This document shows positions 44,968-54,248 of a stretch of 64,000 nt of DNA, piece after piece; within the stretch, counting starts at the first letter, position 1, and each line of letters begins with the position of its first letter. The stretch is from the NCBI RefSeq assembly GCF_009914755.1, contig NC_060933.1; one strand, given 5' to 3'. Below the pieces are notes generated by a model, which saw only the letters and a list, made by a program, of their open reading frames with translations, was not told where the DNA came from and did no database searches. The position numbers and the translations under genes are program-made. This DNA comes from the human T2T-CHM13v2.0 reference genome, Homo sapiens.

Positions 44968-46329
44968 TATAAGGTTTGGTACTATCTGTGATTGTAGGCA
45001 TCCACTATGGGTCTTGGAAAAAGTCCCCTGTGATAAGGGGGGAATACTGTACATCAGTTTCTTTGTCCATGGAACAGAACTCCAATTTATCCACTACACA
45101 GTATAAAGGAAAGCCAGATATGTAAAATATTTTTTCTAAGGAATGAAACATGCTGAATCAAATAAAGCATAATGATCTATTTAACCTTGCTCTTAACTGA
45201 GGGGAAAAAAACAAAACAGTATACAGAGTTAAAAAAAATGGAACTTTAATATAGTTTACCTTGTCCGTTGTTTAACTGCCTATGAGATGCTAAGTTGAAA
45301 TATTGTCTAACGTTTTGCCAGTAGGAGAAAAAAAATAACAGCAGATGGGCCAAGCAGAAGGCAGTGCCAAATCACTTTGAATTCTTTTCTGTGTAGTTTT
45401 TCTTCCAGTTTCATTATAGATATGACTGTGATTGATAATCCTACATCAGAAAACATATATCAGATATTCTTATAATTGTATTACACATGTGTTTCTTTTA
45501 GGGCCACTTCTATAAGCAAGATAGTATAATTAAAGTCTTTTCTAGACGGCATAGAGACGATTAGGAATCCTTGAGGAGTGAAAGAATTATCTAAGAATAG
45601 TGAAAATGAAGAGACTACTACCAGGAAACTGCATACACTAATGCCACTGGCCTGTTTTTGATGTTAACTGATTTTACCCATGAAGATGCTTATTAGTTAT
45701 CATGCACTCACTCTGATCTTGTTCAATTTGTCATCAGGAGCTAAGTGGTGTAACGGCAAAGGCAACAGATGTTGGGGATGACAAGCCAAATTACTGCAAA
45801 CTCCGTCAATAATTTCCCCTCAAAAGTAAATGGTATGACTTTCTAATCCCCTGAATTCATTTCTTTCATAAGCAGTCTATGGGTTTCCATCTGTTTCCTG
45901 GACACAGATAACCTTACTTCCTGCCACACATGATAAGTCTACTCATCAGAGTTCAACCAGTATTCCTTTGTCATTGCAAAACACTTCTTCCAACTGCAGC
46001 ATTCTCAATCAGGACTGCAATTGAAAGACTGGTAACAGTCCCACAGGAAATATCCATCGTTTGGCAGGCCCACTTTGAATCCAAAGCTTTTGAATTGTGC
46101 ATTGTCCAGTGTATTTTAAAAGTGTTTTCATAATTATATAAAAGTATGTTTATAAAATGTCTTCCTTCAACTTTTATACTGAGATACACTAGTTTATTAG
46201 TAATGAAAACTGGTTTATTCAAATAATATACTGGATTACTATTACTAAAATATATATTAACTCATATTGATTGCAACAACACTGTGATTGTTATTCACTA
46301 TTTACAGAGGAGGAAATCAAGATCTGGAG

Positions 46330-46870
46330 AGTTTATTTTTAAAATCTTATTGAGAATTTTCTGGGCGTTAGACAAGAAAGGCATGAAAGATATAGCCATG
46401 ATAAAATCAACATGGATTCTGTGCTCATGGGTCTTAAATCCAGTAAAGGAAACAGGATTTAAATATGTTATACTACTAACTATAACAAACGCTATGAAGA
46501 AAAGGGTGCAATCGTAAATTATAACAGTATGGTATAATTTAGATTGTAAGGTGAGGAAAGCCTTCTCTGATTAAGGGATTTTGAAGCTGAAATCACACGG
46601 ATGATTGGGAGTTACCCCGGCAAAAAGTAAAAGAAGGCTAGGCATCACTTTAGAAAGGTTTTAGGTGGGAGAGAGGCTAACCCATTCCAACAATGGATAA
46701 AGAGGGGAAAGTGACATGCGGCAAACCTAAGCAGGAAAACAGGGAACATATACGGGGTCATGTTAAAGTACTACCTGACTTGTCCAATGTCACACAAATA
46801 GAAAATGGCCTTGCTGAGACTAAGTTTCTTAATTTCTATTCTGCTGGTTTTTCCACTTTGCTACTACACT
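46330..46870 (-). mobile_element. L2/MIR fragments
   Basis: ggaaagccttctctga...ttttgaagctgaaa (L2) and tgacttgtccaatgtcacac (MIR). Confidence 0.5.
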
Positions 46871-47059
46871 GTCTTTTTACAAATGAGTGAACAAAGATAT
46901 TCTCCTATTTTGAATTCATATTTTCAGATGACGGCCTTTAAAAAGCAACAATACGGTAGTGATTTATCAAAATTGATTGTTGGCTAAATTAATATCTTAA
47001 TAGTGGGTTGTTTATATTCATTACATTAATTAGAATTTTAGCTATACTAAGATTTATTA

Positions 47060-47640
47060 GAGAGACACAGAGTGTGGCCCGCTCCCCCAGGGCCCTCCAG
47101 GCCCTTCGGCCGCGGGCCGGCGGGTGAGCTGGGGGTCCCCAGGACAGGCCGCGCCCTCTGTCCTGCAGACACCTGAGGCCTCCGCTGTGGCTGCCCACTG
47201 GCCGGACCCAGGTCTTGAAGCCGCGGCGAACCTCTCATCCCCACCCCACCTCGGTGACTGATGGCGGCAGCGGCTTGTCCCTGCCGGGACCCCACCCAAC
47301 ACCGGGTCTCCCAGCCCAAGCCTGCCGGAACGCAGTGTCTTTGGGTGGCGGCGGGAGTGGCGGGCCCGGAAGCATGGCGGCCACCCAAACGCCAGGCGAT
47401 GGAAGCCGTTAGGGCGTGGCGGAACCGGAAGTCGGCCTAGGGACGCACGCAGGCTCGGCTGTCTCTTTAGGCCACGGAGCTGCGTAGATCCGGAACCCTG
47501 GGCGACTGATCTGTCCCCATTGGGCGAGACCTACCTAGACAAAGGCCTTAACATACCGACAAAGGCCTTAAGGGGCCTGGGAGGTGAGCGAAGTCCCGAA
47601 AAACGGGTGGAAGGTTAGGGGCCATGGGGCGGCTGGTCTT
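47060..47640. promoter_or_regulatory. CpG-island-like 5' end of the NORAD retrocopy with ETS (CCGGAAGT) and YY1-like (ATGGCGG) motifs
   Basis: About 45 CpGs counted by hand in ~580 bp. CCGGAAGT at 47425-47432, CCGGAAGCATGGCGG at 47366-47380, GATGGCGGC at 47260-47268. Promoter activity is inferred, not shown. Confidence 0.6.
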
Positions 47641-48445
47641 CCTTCTACCAGATCTTGCTGTTGGGAGAAATGGTAGAATGACAGGCCACTTTTGGCCCGT
47701 TGGAAATGCCCACCACCCTTTGGGAAGATTTACTGGCCATTTATGGAAGGCCTGTGTATACAATATGAAAAACCTGCCCTCAACTCCACCCTAGCCTGTT
47801 GATAGAAAACATTTGTCACATCTAGCCCTTCTAGATGGAAAGAGGTTCCTGACGTATGATAAAGTAGAGTTAGAAAGTCACATCTTGTAAATTCTCATTT
47901 GTTTAAAGGAAGTCGTACAAAATAAATGTCTTCTGGAGATGATTTTTGGAAATGGAGTTATTAGACAGCCCCTGGAAGCGATACATCCACGTTTGTTCAG
48001 TGGGTTAGATGACATGGAGCTGGAAGACCTGAGAAGGAAGAGAAGAAGGTTCTATGACAGACTGGTCATATTTAGAAGACACTTTCATATTCTATCCATA
48101 GTTTTGTATGCATTTTATTCCTCACTACCTTATATATAGTTGACAATGCTAAGCTTTTTTGAAATGTCTGTTTTTTTAGATGTTCTGAAGTGCCTGATAT
48201 ATGTTAAAATTAAAGGTAATAAAAACACATTTTGTAAGTATCTTTTTGTTACAATTCATAGAAAATGTTGCTTTGGTGGGGAATGGCCAAATCACCTGTT
48301 GAGTAATACTCATTGTGTTTGTGCGCTGGTTCAGGGGAGGAGGGAAGAGGGGAAAGTGCAGAGAGCTCTATGCCACCCTGCCTACAGCGGGGCAAGATGA
48401 ATCATCTATTTCTGTGCATTTTGTTTTACTTATCTGTGTATGTAG

Positions 48446-51405
48446 TGTACATAAAGGACAAATGAGCCCTAATTTACAACATCTAGTCTTTCTAGATGCT
48501 AAGGAGGTTGCCAGTGTCTGACAAAAGTAAAGTTAGTAAACTAATATATTTTGTACATTTTGTTTTACAAGTCCTAGGAAAGATTGTCCTCTGAAAATTT
48601 GAGCATTCTTGCCCACTGGGTTGTTGGAGATAGGAAGGGTTCTAGGCCAGAACGTTCATATTTGGAAGATTCTTTCAAATTATAACTGTTGTTACATGTT
48701 TGCGGTTTATTCAAGACTGCTTTGTACAAAGTGGACAAATTAACTCCTTACTTGAAACATCTAGTCTATCTAGATGTTTAGAAGTGCCTGATGAATGTTA
48801 AATGTAGAGGTAGTAAAATACCATTTTGTAAATATCTTTTTGCTGAAATTCATAGGAAATACTGTCTTTTGGAAATTGAATTGTGAAGCCACCTTTGTGA
48901 GAAGTATAGTGCTGTCTATACTTGTTCAATGGTTTAGAGGAGGTAGGAGGGAAGAAATTGCAAAAGGTAATACGCTAGTATGTTCATAGTTGGACTTTTT
49001 CAGACACCATTTTTCTGTATCTTTTGTGCATTTTGTTTTGCTCTGTATATAGTGTATATAATGGACAGGTGAGTCCTAATTTTGCAGCATCTAGTCTAGT
49101 CTCTAGATGTTAAAGAGGTTGCCAGTGTATGACAAAGTATTTAGTAAAATTAGTATATTTTGTATGCTTTTGTGTTGAAATTCATAGGAAAACTTGTCTT
49201 CTGTGAATGACTTTTGCATAGGAATTTGTTCAACCATCCCTAAGCATTACATGTGCCCGTATTTGTCCACTGTATTAAAGTCAGAGAGAGAAGGAAGTGA
49301 GGAGGGAATGATTGAAGGCCAAAATATTCACATTTAGAAGATACCTCAGTTGATAACCATTGTTCCATGTGTGCAATTTTATTTAACAGTGCTGTGTACG
49401 TGGTGGACAAGTTATATGAAATATCTAGTTTTTCTAGATATTTGGAAGTGCTTGATGTATTTAAAAGCAGTAGTAGAATAACACTTTTTGTAAACAGCTT
49501 TTAAAAACTGATAGGAAATGCTGTTTGGAAGTGGAATTGTTGAGCTACCTGGGAGATGAGAGTGAAGAAATAGCAAAAGGTGTTTTGCCGTTGTTTATTA
49601 GAAAATTTCAGCTTAATCCATTGCCTATATGTTACATGCATTTCATTTAACTTTGCTATACTGTATATATTGTGTATATACTGGACAAATGAGTCCCGAT
49701 TTTATAATATCTAGTCTCTAGATATTAAAGAGGTTGCCAATGTGTGACAGAAGTAGAGTTAGTAAACTAACACATTTTGTACACTTTGTTAAAATTCATA
49801 GAAAGGCTGTCTTCTGAAAAGGACTTTTGAAAGTGAAATGATAACATCAGCTCTAAGTGACACATGTACCTATATCCACCAGGTTGGTGGTGGAGAGGAG
49901 TTGGAAGGAATGAAGGATTCTAGACCAGAATGCTCCTATTTAGAAGACACTTTCAGATGTAACCACTGTTACATGTGTGTAGTTTATTCAACACTACTGT
50001 GTCCATAGTGGACAAACTTAAGTCCTTATTTGAAACATAAGTCTTTCTAGATGTTTAGAGATGCCCAAAATATGTTAAAAGCAGAGGCAGTAAATATAGT
50101 AGAGGTAGAAACATAGTCTTTCTAGATGTTTAGAAGTGCACAAAGTCTGTTAAAAGTAGAGGTAGTAAATAACACATTTTGTAGCTATCCTTTTGATATG
50201 AAATATTGTCTTATGGAAATTGATCAGTTCTCTAAGCAGTACACATTATTATATTTGTGCTGGTTCATAGGAAAGGAGGAGCACAAAGTGCAAAGGGCTT
50301 TCTACCAGTGTGTTTATGATGATGCCCATTGACCATTGTCCCTTATGTCTGCATTTTCATTTACTGTGCTGTGTATATAGTGTATATAAGTGGACAAAAG
50401 AGTCCTAATTTACATCTAGTCGATGTTAAAGGGTTGCCAGTGTATGACAAAAGTAGAGTTAGTAAACTAATACATTGAGTACACTTTGTGTTAAAATTCA
50501 TAGGGAAGACGTCTTAAAAACACAGAAGTGAAATTGTTAAAATCCCCCTTAAGCATTACAGATGGCTTAAAGCTGTCTCTGGGGTTGGTAGAGGTCGGAA
50601 AGGGAAGGGTTCTGGGCCAGAATGTTCCTATTTAGAAGACACTCAAATTAGAGTCTGTGTTATGTATATGCACCATTTATTCAGTGCTATTGTGTATATA
50701 AAGGAAAACTTTAGTCCAATTTGAAACATCTAGTCTTTTTAGGTGTTTGAAAGTGCACAACATAGATTAAAAGTAAAGGGCTAAAGTAACACCCCTCTCA
50801 GTATTTGTTTTCATTACTTCCTAGGAGTGGTTGCATTTGGGAATGGAATTTTTAAACTTGATGCTTAGGAGCATATGCTGACTATTCATTGGGTGGCGAT
50901 GGGTTAGGGAGGAGGAAGTATGCAGGGAGAAGGGTTCTGAGCCCATGAGTTAGATTAGTTCAGATGGTCTGACCATTGTTCTATATGTGTATTTTAATTA
51001 ATATTGTATATTAAAGGATAAACAACTCCTAATGCTCAAAGTATGTTAAAACTAGATGTAGTAAAACAATCCCTTTATAAATGTCCTTTTGTTAGTTTTT
51101 AGGAAGGTCCGTCTTCTGGGAGTGACCTTTATTAGGTCCCTAGGAGCTAGACGTCCTATACTTAGCCACTGGGGATGGTGGAAAAGGGAGAAGAGGAAGG
51201 GTGAAGGGAAGGGCTCTTTGCTAGTATCTCCATATCTAGAAGATGGTTTTAGATGTTAACCACAGGTCTATATGAGCATTTTTAGTAAATTCCCTGTGTT
51301 TATTGTGGACAAATTCATTATTTTGCAATATCTAAACTTTATGGATGTCTGGAGTGACAATATATGATAAAAACTAGAGCTAGTGAATTAGCCAATTTGT
51401 AAATA
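48446..51405 (+). other. Array of 10 canonical Pumilio response elements (UGUANAUA)
   Basis: TGTANATA starts at 48446, 48827, 49044, 49053, 49662, 49673, 50372, 50381, 50693 and 51398. Degenerate sites are at 47755, ~48130 and 48437. Confidence 0.9.
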
Positions 51406-52121
51406 CCTTTGTTATAATTGATAGAAAAGATGCGTCTTGGACATGGAATTGTTTAACCACCTCTGAGCAGTATATGTCAGGACTTGTTCGTTAGGTTGGC
51501 AGCAGAGGGGCAGAAGGAATTATATAGGAGAGATGTGTGCAGATGTGTCCATATTTACATGTTGACGATAGCCATTGATGTATGTGCATCTCTTTTGGCT
51601 GTACTATAGGAATACATTAAGTAATTTAATGGAAATATACCTTGCTAATATTTCAGTGCTATAGATCTGCTAATGAATTATCTTAGAAACATTATACTTA
51701 GTGTATTCTGTTGCTGTATGTTTCATTTTAAGTTGAGCATTAAGGGAATGCAGTATTTAAATCGGAACTCTGCCAATGCTTTTATCTAGAGGCGTGTTGC
51801 CATTTTCGTCTTCTATGAAATTTTTGTCCCAAGAAAGGCAGGATTACATTTTTTTTAACAGATTGAGTTGGTATAGTGTATTCTTAGTTATCAAAATACT
51901 CATATAGCTTTGGGATTTTGAATTGGTAAATATTCATGATGTGTGAAAAAGCAGGATACATACTGTACGATCTCAGTCCCATAAAATTGGATGTTGTGCC
52001 TACACACCCACAGGACCTAGAAGAACATGTCAAACTATAAACTGATTGTGATTGTGAATGACTTTGTTCTTTGCTTCTTGTGTTTTTCAGTTTCCTATGT
52101 TGCACATATTAACTTTTTAAA

Positions 52122-52127
52122 AATAAA
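52122..52127 (+). terminator. Polyadenylation signal of the retrocopied transcript
   Basis: AATAAA about 20 nt upstream of the residual A tract. Confidence 0.8.
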
Positions 52128-52159
52128 GATTATTTTTAAAACCCGTAAAAAAAATTATT

Positions 52160-53863: not shown

Positions 53864-54248
<385 letters not shown>

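What the first reader, a model, noticed from the sequence alone, without database searches (positions are those of the whole stretch)
47060..47640. The retrocopy's 5' CpG island has escaped CpG decay
Seen in sequence: about 45 CpGs in ~580 bp, whereas the nearby AluY (53931-54248) keeps only about 6 CpGs of a CpG-rich consensus. The island contains CCGGAAGT (ETS/GABP-type) and two ATGGCGG (YY1-type) motifs, which lie downstream of the parental TSS and were therefore carried along in the RNA. Inference: the segment has stayed unmethylated in the germline and may be a portable, possibly bidirectional promoter or orphan CpG island in a gene-poor region.
Basis: partly seen in the sequence, partly recalled or inferred. 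Interest (0 to 1): 0.7.

Follow-up and report, generated by a model that had tools for sequence, protein, structure and literature searches.

The report
NORAD retrocopy rebuilt a lost promoter
This is the front end of an old reverse-transcribed copy of the RNA gene NORAD: it kept about two thirds of its inherited CpG sites, gained four new ETS-type transcription-factor motifs that the parent lacks at these positions, and likely acts as a weak two-way promoter.

Summary
The count holds: 45 CpGs in 581 bp (o/e 0.67; window 0.16), against 6 in the AluY. The stretch is the 5' end of a NORAD retrocopy that predates NORAD's own Alu. 'Escaped decay' is overstated. The copy deaminated 33-40% of its ancestral CpGs. 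That is below the Alu-calibrated methylated expectation (47-72%) but well above HCG11 and the chr7 copy (6-13%). Retention is a family trait, and this copy is among the most eroded full-length ones. The ATGGCGG cores are inherited; CCGGAAGT is not. The copy lacks both parental GABPA sites and gained four CCGGAA de novo (0-1 in 22 relatives). Simulated p is 5e-4, or 0.4-1% after motif-panel correction. The best site lies between the divergent annotated 5' ends of LOC105376193 and LINC03094, and LINC03094's poly(A) signal is also copy-specific. Against: no HEK293T GABPA peak at the recalled coordinates. Methylation and chromatin were not tested. Verdict: a known kind (retroposed CpG-island promoter) with an unusual rebuilt ETS core.

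The parts
47060..52147 (+). Near-full-length processed retrocopy of NORAD, about 25 nt shorter at the 5' end than its longest sisters, lacking NORAD's internal Alu, ending in an A-run
   Evidence: 87-91% identity to C20:37.77 Mb; AATAAA at 52122
47060..47640 (+). Transcribed, downstream half of the NORAD promoter CpG island; 45 CpG, about one third of ancestral CpGs deaminated, about 10 new CpGs, one 30-bp deletion near 47323
47261..47267 (+). ATGGCGG core (YY1-like, label recalled), inherited
47374..47380 (+). ATGGCGG core (YY1-like), inherited
47325..47330 (+). CCGGAA gained in this copy (one G>A change)
47366..47372 (+). CCGGAAG gained in this copy (one G>C change)
47419..47432 (+). Tandem ETS cores ending in ACCGGAAGT, gained in this copy (about five changes in 17 bp, possibly partly one slippage event); lies between the two annotated divergent 5' ends
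47490..47495 (+). CCGGAA gained in this copy
47173..47384 (-). Annotated first exon of one LOC105376193 isoform (predicted model); no AG acceptor before 47384, so a 5' end; donor CAG|gtgtct
   Evidence: hub annotation
47466..47583 (+). LINC03094 exon 1; donor GAG|gtgagc, inherited from NORAD
   Evidence: hub annotation
47909..48239 (+). LINC03094 exon 2; ends 16 nt after an AATAAA (48218-48223) found in this copy only, 0 of 6 aligned relatives; no Pumilio element in the spliced RNA
47538..47571 (+). Copy-specific 14-bp local duplication (47538-47551 and 47558-47571), evidence that short templated events occurred in this island
50750..50761 (+). Empty site of NORAD's Alu (single copy of the target word); dates the copy before that insertion
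53931..54248 (-). Neighbouring Alu, Y-type by recalled diagnostic words; local methylated control

Best explanation
The segment is the transcribed half of NORAD's promoter CpG island, retroposed with the RNA, likely only partly methylated in the germline since, and it likely works as a weak bidirectional promoter built around ETS (GABPA-type) motifs that arose in this copy. Shown: origin, relative age, partial CpG loss, loss of the two parental ETS sites, gain of four CCGGAA words, and a copy-specific poly(A) signal. Inferred: G+C- and CpG-rich DNA resists methylation on its own in germ cells and embryos, which slowed deamination to about half the methylated rate. Point changes and short slippage turned CCGGGA-type words into CCGGAA. 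An ETS factor bound there would open the island and fire LINC03094 rightward and LOC105376193 leftward, in a restricted set of cells where the CpG-containing motif is unmethylated.
For: Deamination 33-40% versus 47-72% expected from 37 Alus scaled to this copy's non-CpG divergence. p=0.03 at 0.52 and p=0.006 at 0.57 for the 25/14 set; p=0.002 against the younger local Alu. No gene conversion: 16 of 21 informative island columns are ancestral, 3 derived. CCGGAA/TTCCGG is 4 here and 0 in the inferred ancestor; 15 of 22 relatives have 0 and 7 of 22 have 1. Simulations with this copy's own substitution set give 4 or more in 11 of 20,000 runs and ACCGGAAGT in 7 of 40,000. A gain of 4 or more in any of 12 promoter cores occurs in 228 of 40,000 runs, and in 221 of 20,000 with six templated events added. 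The parent's two TTCCGG sites are 47 bp apart, matching GABPA peak 285 in PMC4839217's supplement (hits at 48 and 95, ACCGGAAGTGC). One lies upstream of the RNA start, the other in the 25 nt this copy lacks. ACCGGAAGT lies 40 bp from 47384 and 34 bp from 47466. GABPA binds tandem GGAA and commonly drives bidirectional promoters.
Against: No GABPA peak was found at the recalled hg18 position (chr9:105.80 Mb) in the HEK293T lists held (file cut when stored, no chr9 positive control). Tichon 2016 says the long NORAD pseudogenes other than HCG11 'do not appear to be expressed'; this copy is probably one of its four. At the lowest calibration (0.47) the CpG deficit is weak, p=0.03-0.26. Some hexamer gains 4 or more copies in 658 of 3,000 simulations, so the ETS excess depends on the recalled 12-motif panel. 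Deamination is no lower near the ETS cluster (5 of 16) than left of it (12 of 33). LOC105376193 is a predicted model. No methylation, chromatin or expression data were read.
Confidence: 0.5

Rival explanations
1. Passive, eroding relic: the island is hypomethylated in germ cells by default, the ETS words are chance or slippage products of a sequence rich in CCGGGA, and the annotated RNAs are low-level noise.
For: Retroposed CpG islands are hypomethylated in male germ cells and methylated in soma regardless of site (PMC4509998). Most sisters keep CpGs without ETS gains. A templated duplication sits 100 bp away. No HEK293T GABPA peak. No extra CpG protection around the cluster.
Against: Adding templated events leaves 4 or more CCGGAA at 31 of 20,000. 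The sisters' rate gives Poisson 3e-4, or 0.008 for 23 copies. The best site sits between two divergent annotated starts, and the sense RNA uses a copy-specific AATAAA.
Confidence: 0.28
2. Ordinary methylated decay: the island started with about 72 CpGs and has simply not had time to lose them.
For: About half of ancestral CpG sites are gone if all substitutions are counted (44-51%). The lowest calibration gives p up to 0.26. Alus vary widely (0.12-0.86 among six Y-type elements).
Against: Composition-matched expectation is 0.52-0.72. The younger local Alu lost three quarters of its CpGs. The copy predates an Alu type that lost 57% when pooled.
Confidence: 0.12
3. One reading: a fully unmethylated orphan island whose ETS and YY1 sites were carried in with the RNA.
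For: CpG o/e 0.67 and inherited ATGGCGG cores.
Against: Deamination exceeds an unmethylated expectation of 9-17% (p=4e-6 to 0.004). The ETS sites are absent from the parent and the inferred ancestor.
Confidence: 0.06
4. The CpGs were refreshed by gene conversion from modern NORAD, or the copy is young.
For: Three island columns share the derived parental state.
Against: 16 of 21 informative island columns are ancestral. The Alu site is empty. The terminal branch is 0.045, against 0.009-0.028 for the younger copies.
Confidence: 0.03

Closest known systems
Retrotransposed (inherited) promoters, Okamura and Nakai 2008, PMC2386082 (abstract seen); Carelli 2016, PMC4772013 (passages)
   Same: Promoter-proximal sequence carried in the RNA and operative at the new site; about 3% of expressed retrocopies in Carelli.
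   Different: Here the parent is a lncRNA. The parental GABPA sites were not carried, and new ones arose inside the inherited island.
HCG11, the expressed NORAD retrocopy (Tichon 2016, PMC4947167, passages; assignment to the C6:26.39 Mb copy is from recalled position)
   Same: Same parent, retained 5' island, transcribed.
   Different: HCG11 is younger, has the Alu, keeps the 5'-terminal TTCCGG, lost only 6-8% of CpGs and has 16 Pumilio elements. This copy lost 33-40%, and its annotated sense RNA starts mid-island, is spliced and has none.
Retrotransposed CpG islands hypomethylated in male germ cells (Grandi 2015, PMC4509998, passages and first part of the Discussion); autonomous CpG-island chromatin (Wachter 2014, PMC4204011, abstract)
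   Same: Explains slowed CpG loss without any function.
   Different: Those are engineered inserts; the NORAD family is a natural, age-graded series with both kept and decayed islands.
Newly evolved GABPA sites in primate promoters (Perdomo-Sabogal 2016, PMC4839217, passages and parts of the supplement)
   Same: Substitutions create CCGGAAG sites, including in a bidirectional promoter (ZNF398/ZNF425).
   Different: There, sites are added to existing bound promoters. Here four or five arise in a pseudogene island, and binding is not shown.
PPP1R26P1 CpG85 in RB1 (PMC4537222, search listing only)
   Same: A retrocopy-borne CpG island acting as a promoter.
   Different: That one is intronic and imprinted; no evidence of imprinting was sought here.

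Membership tests
Processed retrocopy of NORAD | Colinear match to the parent RNA from near its start to its poly(A) site, without the upstream promoter | tested here: met
Processed retrocopy of NORAD | A-tail and target-site duplication | tested here: inconclusive
   A-run present; only a degenerate ~10-bp repeat read by eye; the scripted search found no clean TSD
CpG island (sequence definition, thresholds recalled) | >200 bp (or >500 bp), GC >0.5-0.55, o/e >0.6-0.65 | tested here: met
   581 bp, 0.678, 0.674
Unmethylated (orphan) CpG island | CpG transitions near the non-CpG rate | tested here: not met
   33-40% deaminated versus 9-17% expected
Unmethylated (orphan) CpG island | Measured low methylation, H3K4me3, open chromatin | not testable with these tools
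   no epigenome data on hand
Inherited retrocopy promoter | Start site lies in parent-derived sequence | tested here: met
   annotated 5' ends 47384 and 47466 both align to NORAD's 5' island; the starts themselves come from the annotation
Inherited retrocopy promoter | Driving motifs inherited from the parent | tested here: not met
   ETS words are de novo; only the ATGGCGG cores are inherited
GABPA-type bidirectional promoter | Tandem GGAA / CCGGAAGT motif between divergent starts <1 kb apart | tested here: met
   47419-47432 lies between 47384 (-) and 47466 (+)
GABPA-type bidirectional promoter | GABPA occupancy | tested here: inconclusive
   no peak found in one HEK293T list at recalled hg18 coordinates; file cut; one somatic line
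GABPA-type bidirectional promoter | Motif-dependent activity in both orientations | not testable with these tools
   needs a reporter assay
Pumilio-decoy lncRNA (NORAD, HCG11) | Transcript carries many TGTANATA elements | tested here: not met
   0 in spliced LINC03094; 10 remain in the DNA downstream versus 15 in the parent

The most novel reading that the evidence does not exclude
A NORAD retrocopy that arrived without either of the parent's GABPA sites re-evolved a GABP-type bidirectional promoter under selection: four to five new ETS cores converged inside the inherited island, and a new poly(A) signal defined a new spliced RNA. With its 21 sister islands, kept or decayed, it forms a dated natural experiment on how CpG-island promoters are born.
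Probability: 0.22. Interest if true: 0.7.

Novelty: new variant of a known kind. Interest (0 to 1): 0.48.

Why it matters
Retroposed promoter islands are known. This case separates two steps that are usually confounded: passive survival of CpG-rich DNA, and later gain of activator sites. The same ~600-bp island was inserted at more than 20 places over a long span of time, with CpG loss from about 6% to about 100%. That makes the question of why some islands stay unmethylated and become promoters testable with existing methylomes and one set of reporter constructs. It also means LINC03094 is a NORAD-derived RNA without Pumilio sites, so it would not be a decoy like its parent.

Tried and rejected
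Gene conversion from the parent: rejected. Inheritance of CCGGAAGT: rejected. Uniqueness of CpG retention: rejected. Local protection of CpGs by the ETS cluster: not seen. Body CpGs as an internal control: too few (8 kept, 8 deaminated) and biased by the ancestral rule. The first projection took in paralogous repeat hits and was redone. The first motif count missed the 47490 site because an insertion column was filtered (3, 4). One print line was mis-indexed and is not used. A clean TSD was not found. The phrase search in the GABPA supplement failed its own control and is discounted; one search returned noise. Literature: LINC03094 gave 1 paper, a target list only. The recalled alias LOC101928523 (not verified; position compatible) gave 6 papers; the 5 read mention it only in association tables or text. 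LOC105376193 and NR_109803 gave none. Listings and the empty search showed nothing on this copy's island or its ETS gains. The original NORAD paper by Lee et al. was not seen. The 3' bodies of nine older copies were not obtained, so their ages rest on 0-3 kb of sequence.

Full report
Observation. The counts are right. Window 47060-47640 holds 45 CpG in 581 bp (GC 0.678, o/e 0.674) in a window with o/e 0.156, and the Alu at 53931-54248 holds 6. CCGGAAGT is at 47425 and ATGGCGG at 47261 and 47374.

What the stretch is. A search of the window's own genome with 47055-52150 returned 100 matching pieces (40 of 95 candidates scored, so a lower bound), led by C20:37.77 Mb. That locus has its CpG island extending upstream of the match, spans 5.3 kb and has 15 Pumilio elements. 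The copy runs from parent position 2985 to the poly(A) site, 47060-52147. It starts about 25 nt later than the chr12, chrX, chr6, chr5 and chr7 copies. It has a clean empty site where the parent and the chr12, chrX and chr6 copies carry an Alu. A tree on CpG-masked columns (copies with more than 700 usable columns) is a ladder. This copy's branch is 0.045, older than chr5, chr12, chrX and chr6:26.39 Mb (HCG11 by recalled position). Non-CpG divergence in the body is 159 of 3,720 sites, 0.043. An age near 35-45 million years is my inference from recalled primate rates and Alu ages.

Has the island escaped decay? Partly. A search with the island gave 26 pieces at 23 loci, including this copy and the parent; three second pieces were not used separately. 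Ancestral CpGs were defined as CG in both younger and older relatives. This copy kept 25 and deaminated 14, with 9 changed otherwise and 11 in gaps; the deaminated fraction is 0.33-0.40 over four definitions. The methylated control is 37 Alus from the held loci (41 found; one duplicate dropped and three NORAD-borne copies left out of the pools). They give a per-site CpG transition rate 7.4-9.7 times the non-CpG divergence, hence an expected loss of 0.47-0.72, or 0.52-0.61 at matched composition. The observed 14 of 39 gives p=0.11 at 0.47, 0.03 at 0.52 and 0.006 at 0.57. Against the local Alu (6 kept of about 25) p=0.002. It also exceeds an unmethylated expectation of 9-17% (p=4e-6 to 0.004). 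So protection is real but about half. Conversion from the modern parent does not explain it: 16 of 21 informative island columns are ancestral.

It is a family trait. HCG11 lost 4 of 54, chr7 4 of 46, chr12 3 of 55, chr5 5 of 64, chrX 8 of 49 and chr17 13 of 47. This copy is significantly more eroded than HCG11 and chr7. Among 15 older copies, 7 lost 7-29%, 3 lost 43-48% and 5 lost 68-100% (7-22 sites each; two of the seven are near-duplicates). Engineered retroposed islands are hypomethylated in male germ cells and methylated in soma (PMC4509998, passages and part of the Discussion). G+C- and CpG-rich inserts adopt island chromatin by default (PMC4204011, abstract). Retention therefore needs no function.

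The motifs. The two ATGGCGG words are inherited. The ETS site is not: the parent and sisters read CCCGGGAAGG where this copy reads AACCGGAAGT. This copy has four CCGGAA, at 47325, 47366, 47425 and 47490, and a fifth CGGAA at 47420, all absent from the inferred ancestor. Of 22 relatives, 15 have none and 7 have one (some old rows include unrelated flank). Only three other CCGGAA/TTCCGG occur in the remaining 63 kb. Placing this copy's own substitutions at random gives four or more in 11 of 20,000 runs, and ACCGGAAGT in 7 of 40,000. Four gains in any of 12 recalled promoter cores occur in 0.4-0.6% of runs, and in up to 1.1% with templated replacements. Four gains of any hexamer occur in 22%, so the result is suggestive rather than decisive. 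A copy-specific 14-bp duplication at 47538-47571 shows that slippage acted here, and the tandem site could owe three of its changes to one such event.

The parent's own ETS sites. Two TTCCGG words 47 bp apart flank NORAD's start. GABPA peak 285 of PMC4839217's supplement lies on chr20 with hits at offsets 48 and 95 and the word ACCGGAAGTGC, the same geometry and word, so the parent is very likely GABPA-bound. One site is upstream of the RNA. The other is in the first nucleotides, which most full-length sisters keep and this copy lacks. No peak was found at the recalled hg18 position of this copy. That list is one somatic line, the file was cut when stored, and no chr9 control could be confirmed.

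Transcripts. The annotation puts a minus-strand 5' end at 47384 (no acceptor before it) and LINC03094's start at 47466, 82 bp apart, with ACCGGAAGT between them. All annotated junctions checked are GT-AG. LINC03094 uses an inherited donor and ends after an AATAAA found only in this copy, 0 of 6 aligned relatives, so it should come from this locus. It has no Pumilio element. Against strong activity, PMC4947167 states that long pseudogenes other than HCG11 do not appear expressed.

Mechanism and verdict. Best reading (0.5): an inherited half-island, partly protected by its own composition, that became a weak, probably cell-restricted bidirectional promoter through new ETS sites. Origin, partial decay, motif gain and the new poly(A) signal are shown; methylation state, binding and causality are inferred. 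It works like the inherited retrocopy promoters of PMC2386082 (abstract) and PMC4772013 (passages), but fails the 'motifs inherited' and 'unmethylated rate' tests. Ten literature searches showed no account of this copy's island or its ETS gains; subscription papers and unseen supplements may hold one. Novelty: new variant of a known kind; interest 0.48.

Noticed in passing
L031, L033, L035-L037, L039, L043 (C19:12.68 Mb, C1:246.97 Mb, C6:27.6-29.04 Mb): Much older NORAD-derived islands that still keep most CpGs (7-29% deaminated), five of them within 1.5 Mb on chr6, near the chr6:26.39 Mb copy; candidates for co-opted promoters.
   Followed up: partly
L037 and L039 (C6:29,034,468-29,035,038 + and 29,040,316-29,040,879 -): Two near-identical NORAD island copies in inverted orientation about 5 kb apart.
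   Followed up: no
L038, L040, L041, L042, L032: Five copies whose islands have largely decayed (68-100% deaminated): the natural negative controls.
   Followed up: partly
window 53931-54248: The local Y-type Alu is unusually decayed (19 of 22 aligned CpG sites, versus 12-67% in five other Y-type Alus), so it overstates the contrast; it also has a short internal duplication.
   Followed up: partly
window 46060-47059: The upstream flank has CpG o/e 0.35 against a window median of 0.13 per kb (95th percentile 0.28), on only 9 CpGs; a weak hint of a hypomethylated shore.
   Followed up: partly
window 48446-51405: Ten TGTANATA Pumilio elements remain in the retrocopy body (parent 15); a read-through RNA could still bind Pumilio, but none is annotated.
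   Followed up: no
L047, parent 5' region: The parent has a 17-bp tandem duplication absent from all seven aligned copies and a 9-bp deletion relative to most of them: recent changes in NORAD itself.
   Followed up: no
window 47466-48239: Spliced LINC03094 (449 nt) has a 66-codon open frame; no evidence of coding was sought.
   Followed up: no
window 47060-47640: Many ancestral CpGs changed by transversion (8-15 sites), also seen in the chrX copy; unexplained, partly alignment noise.
   Followed up: no
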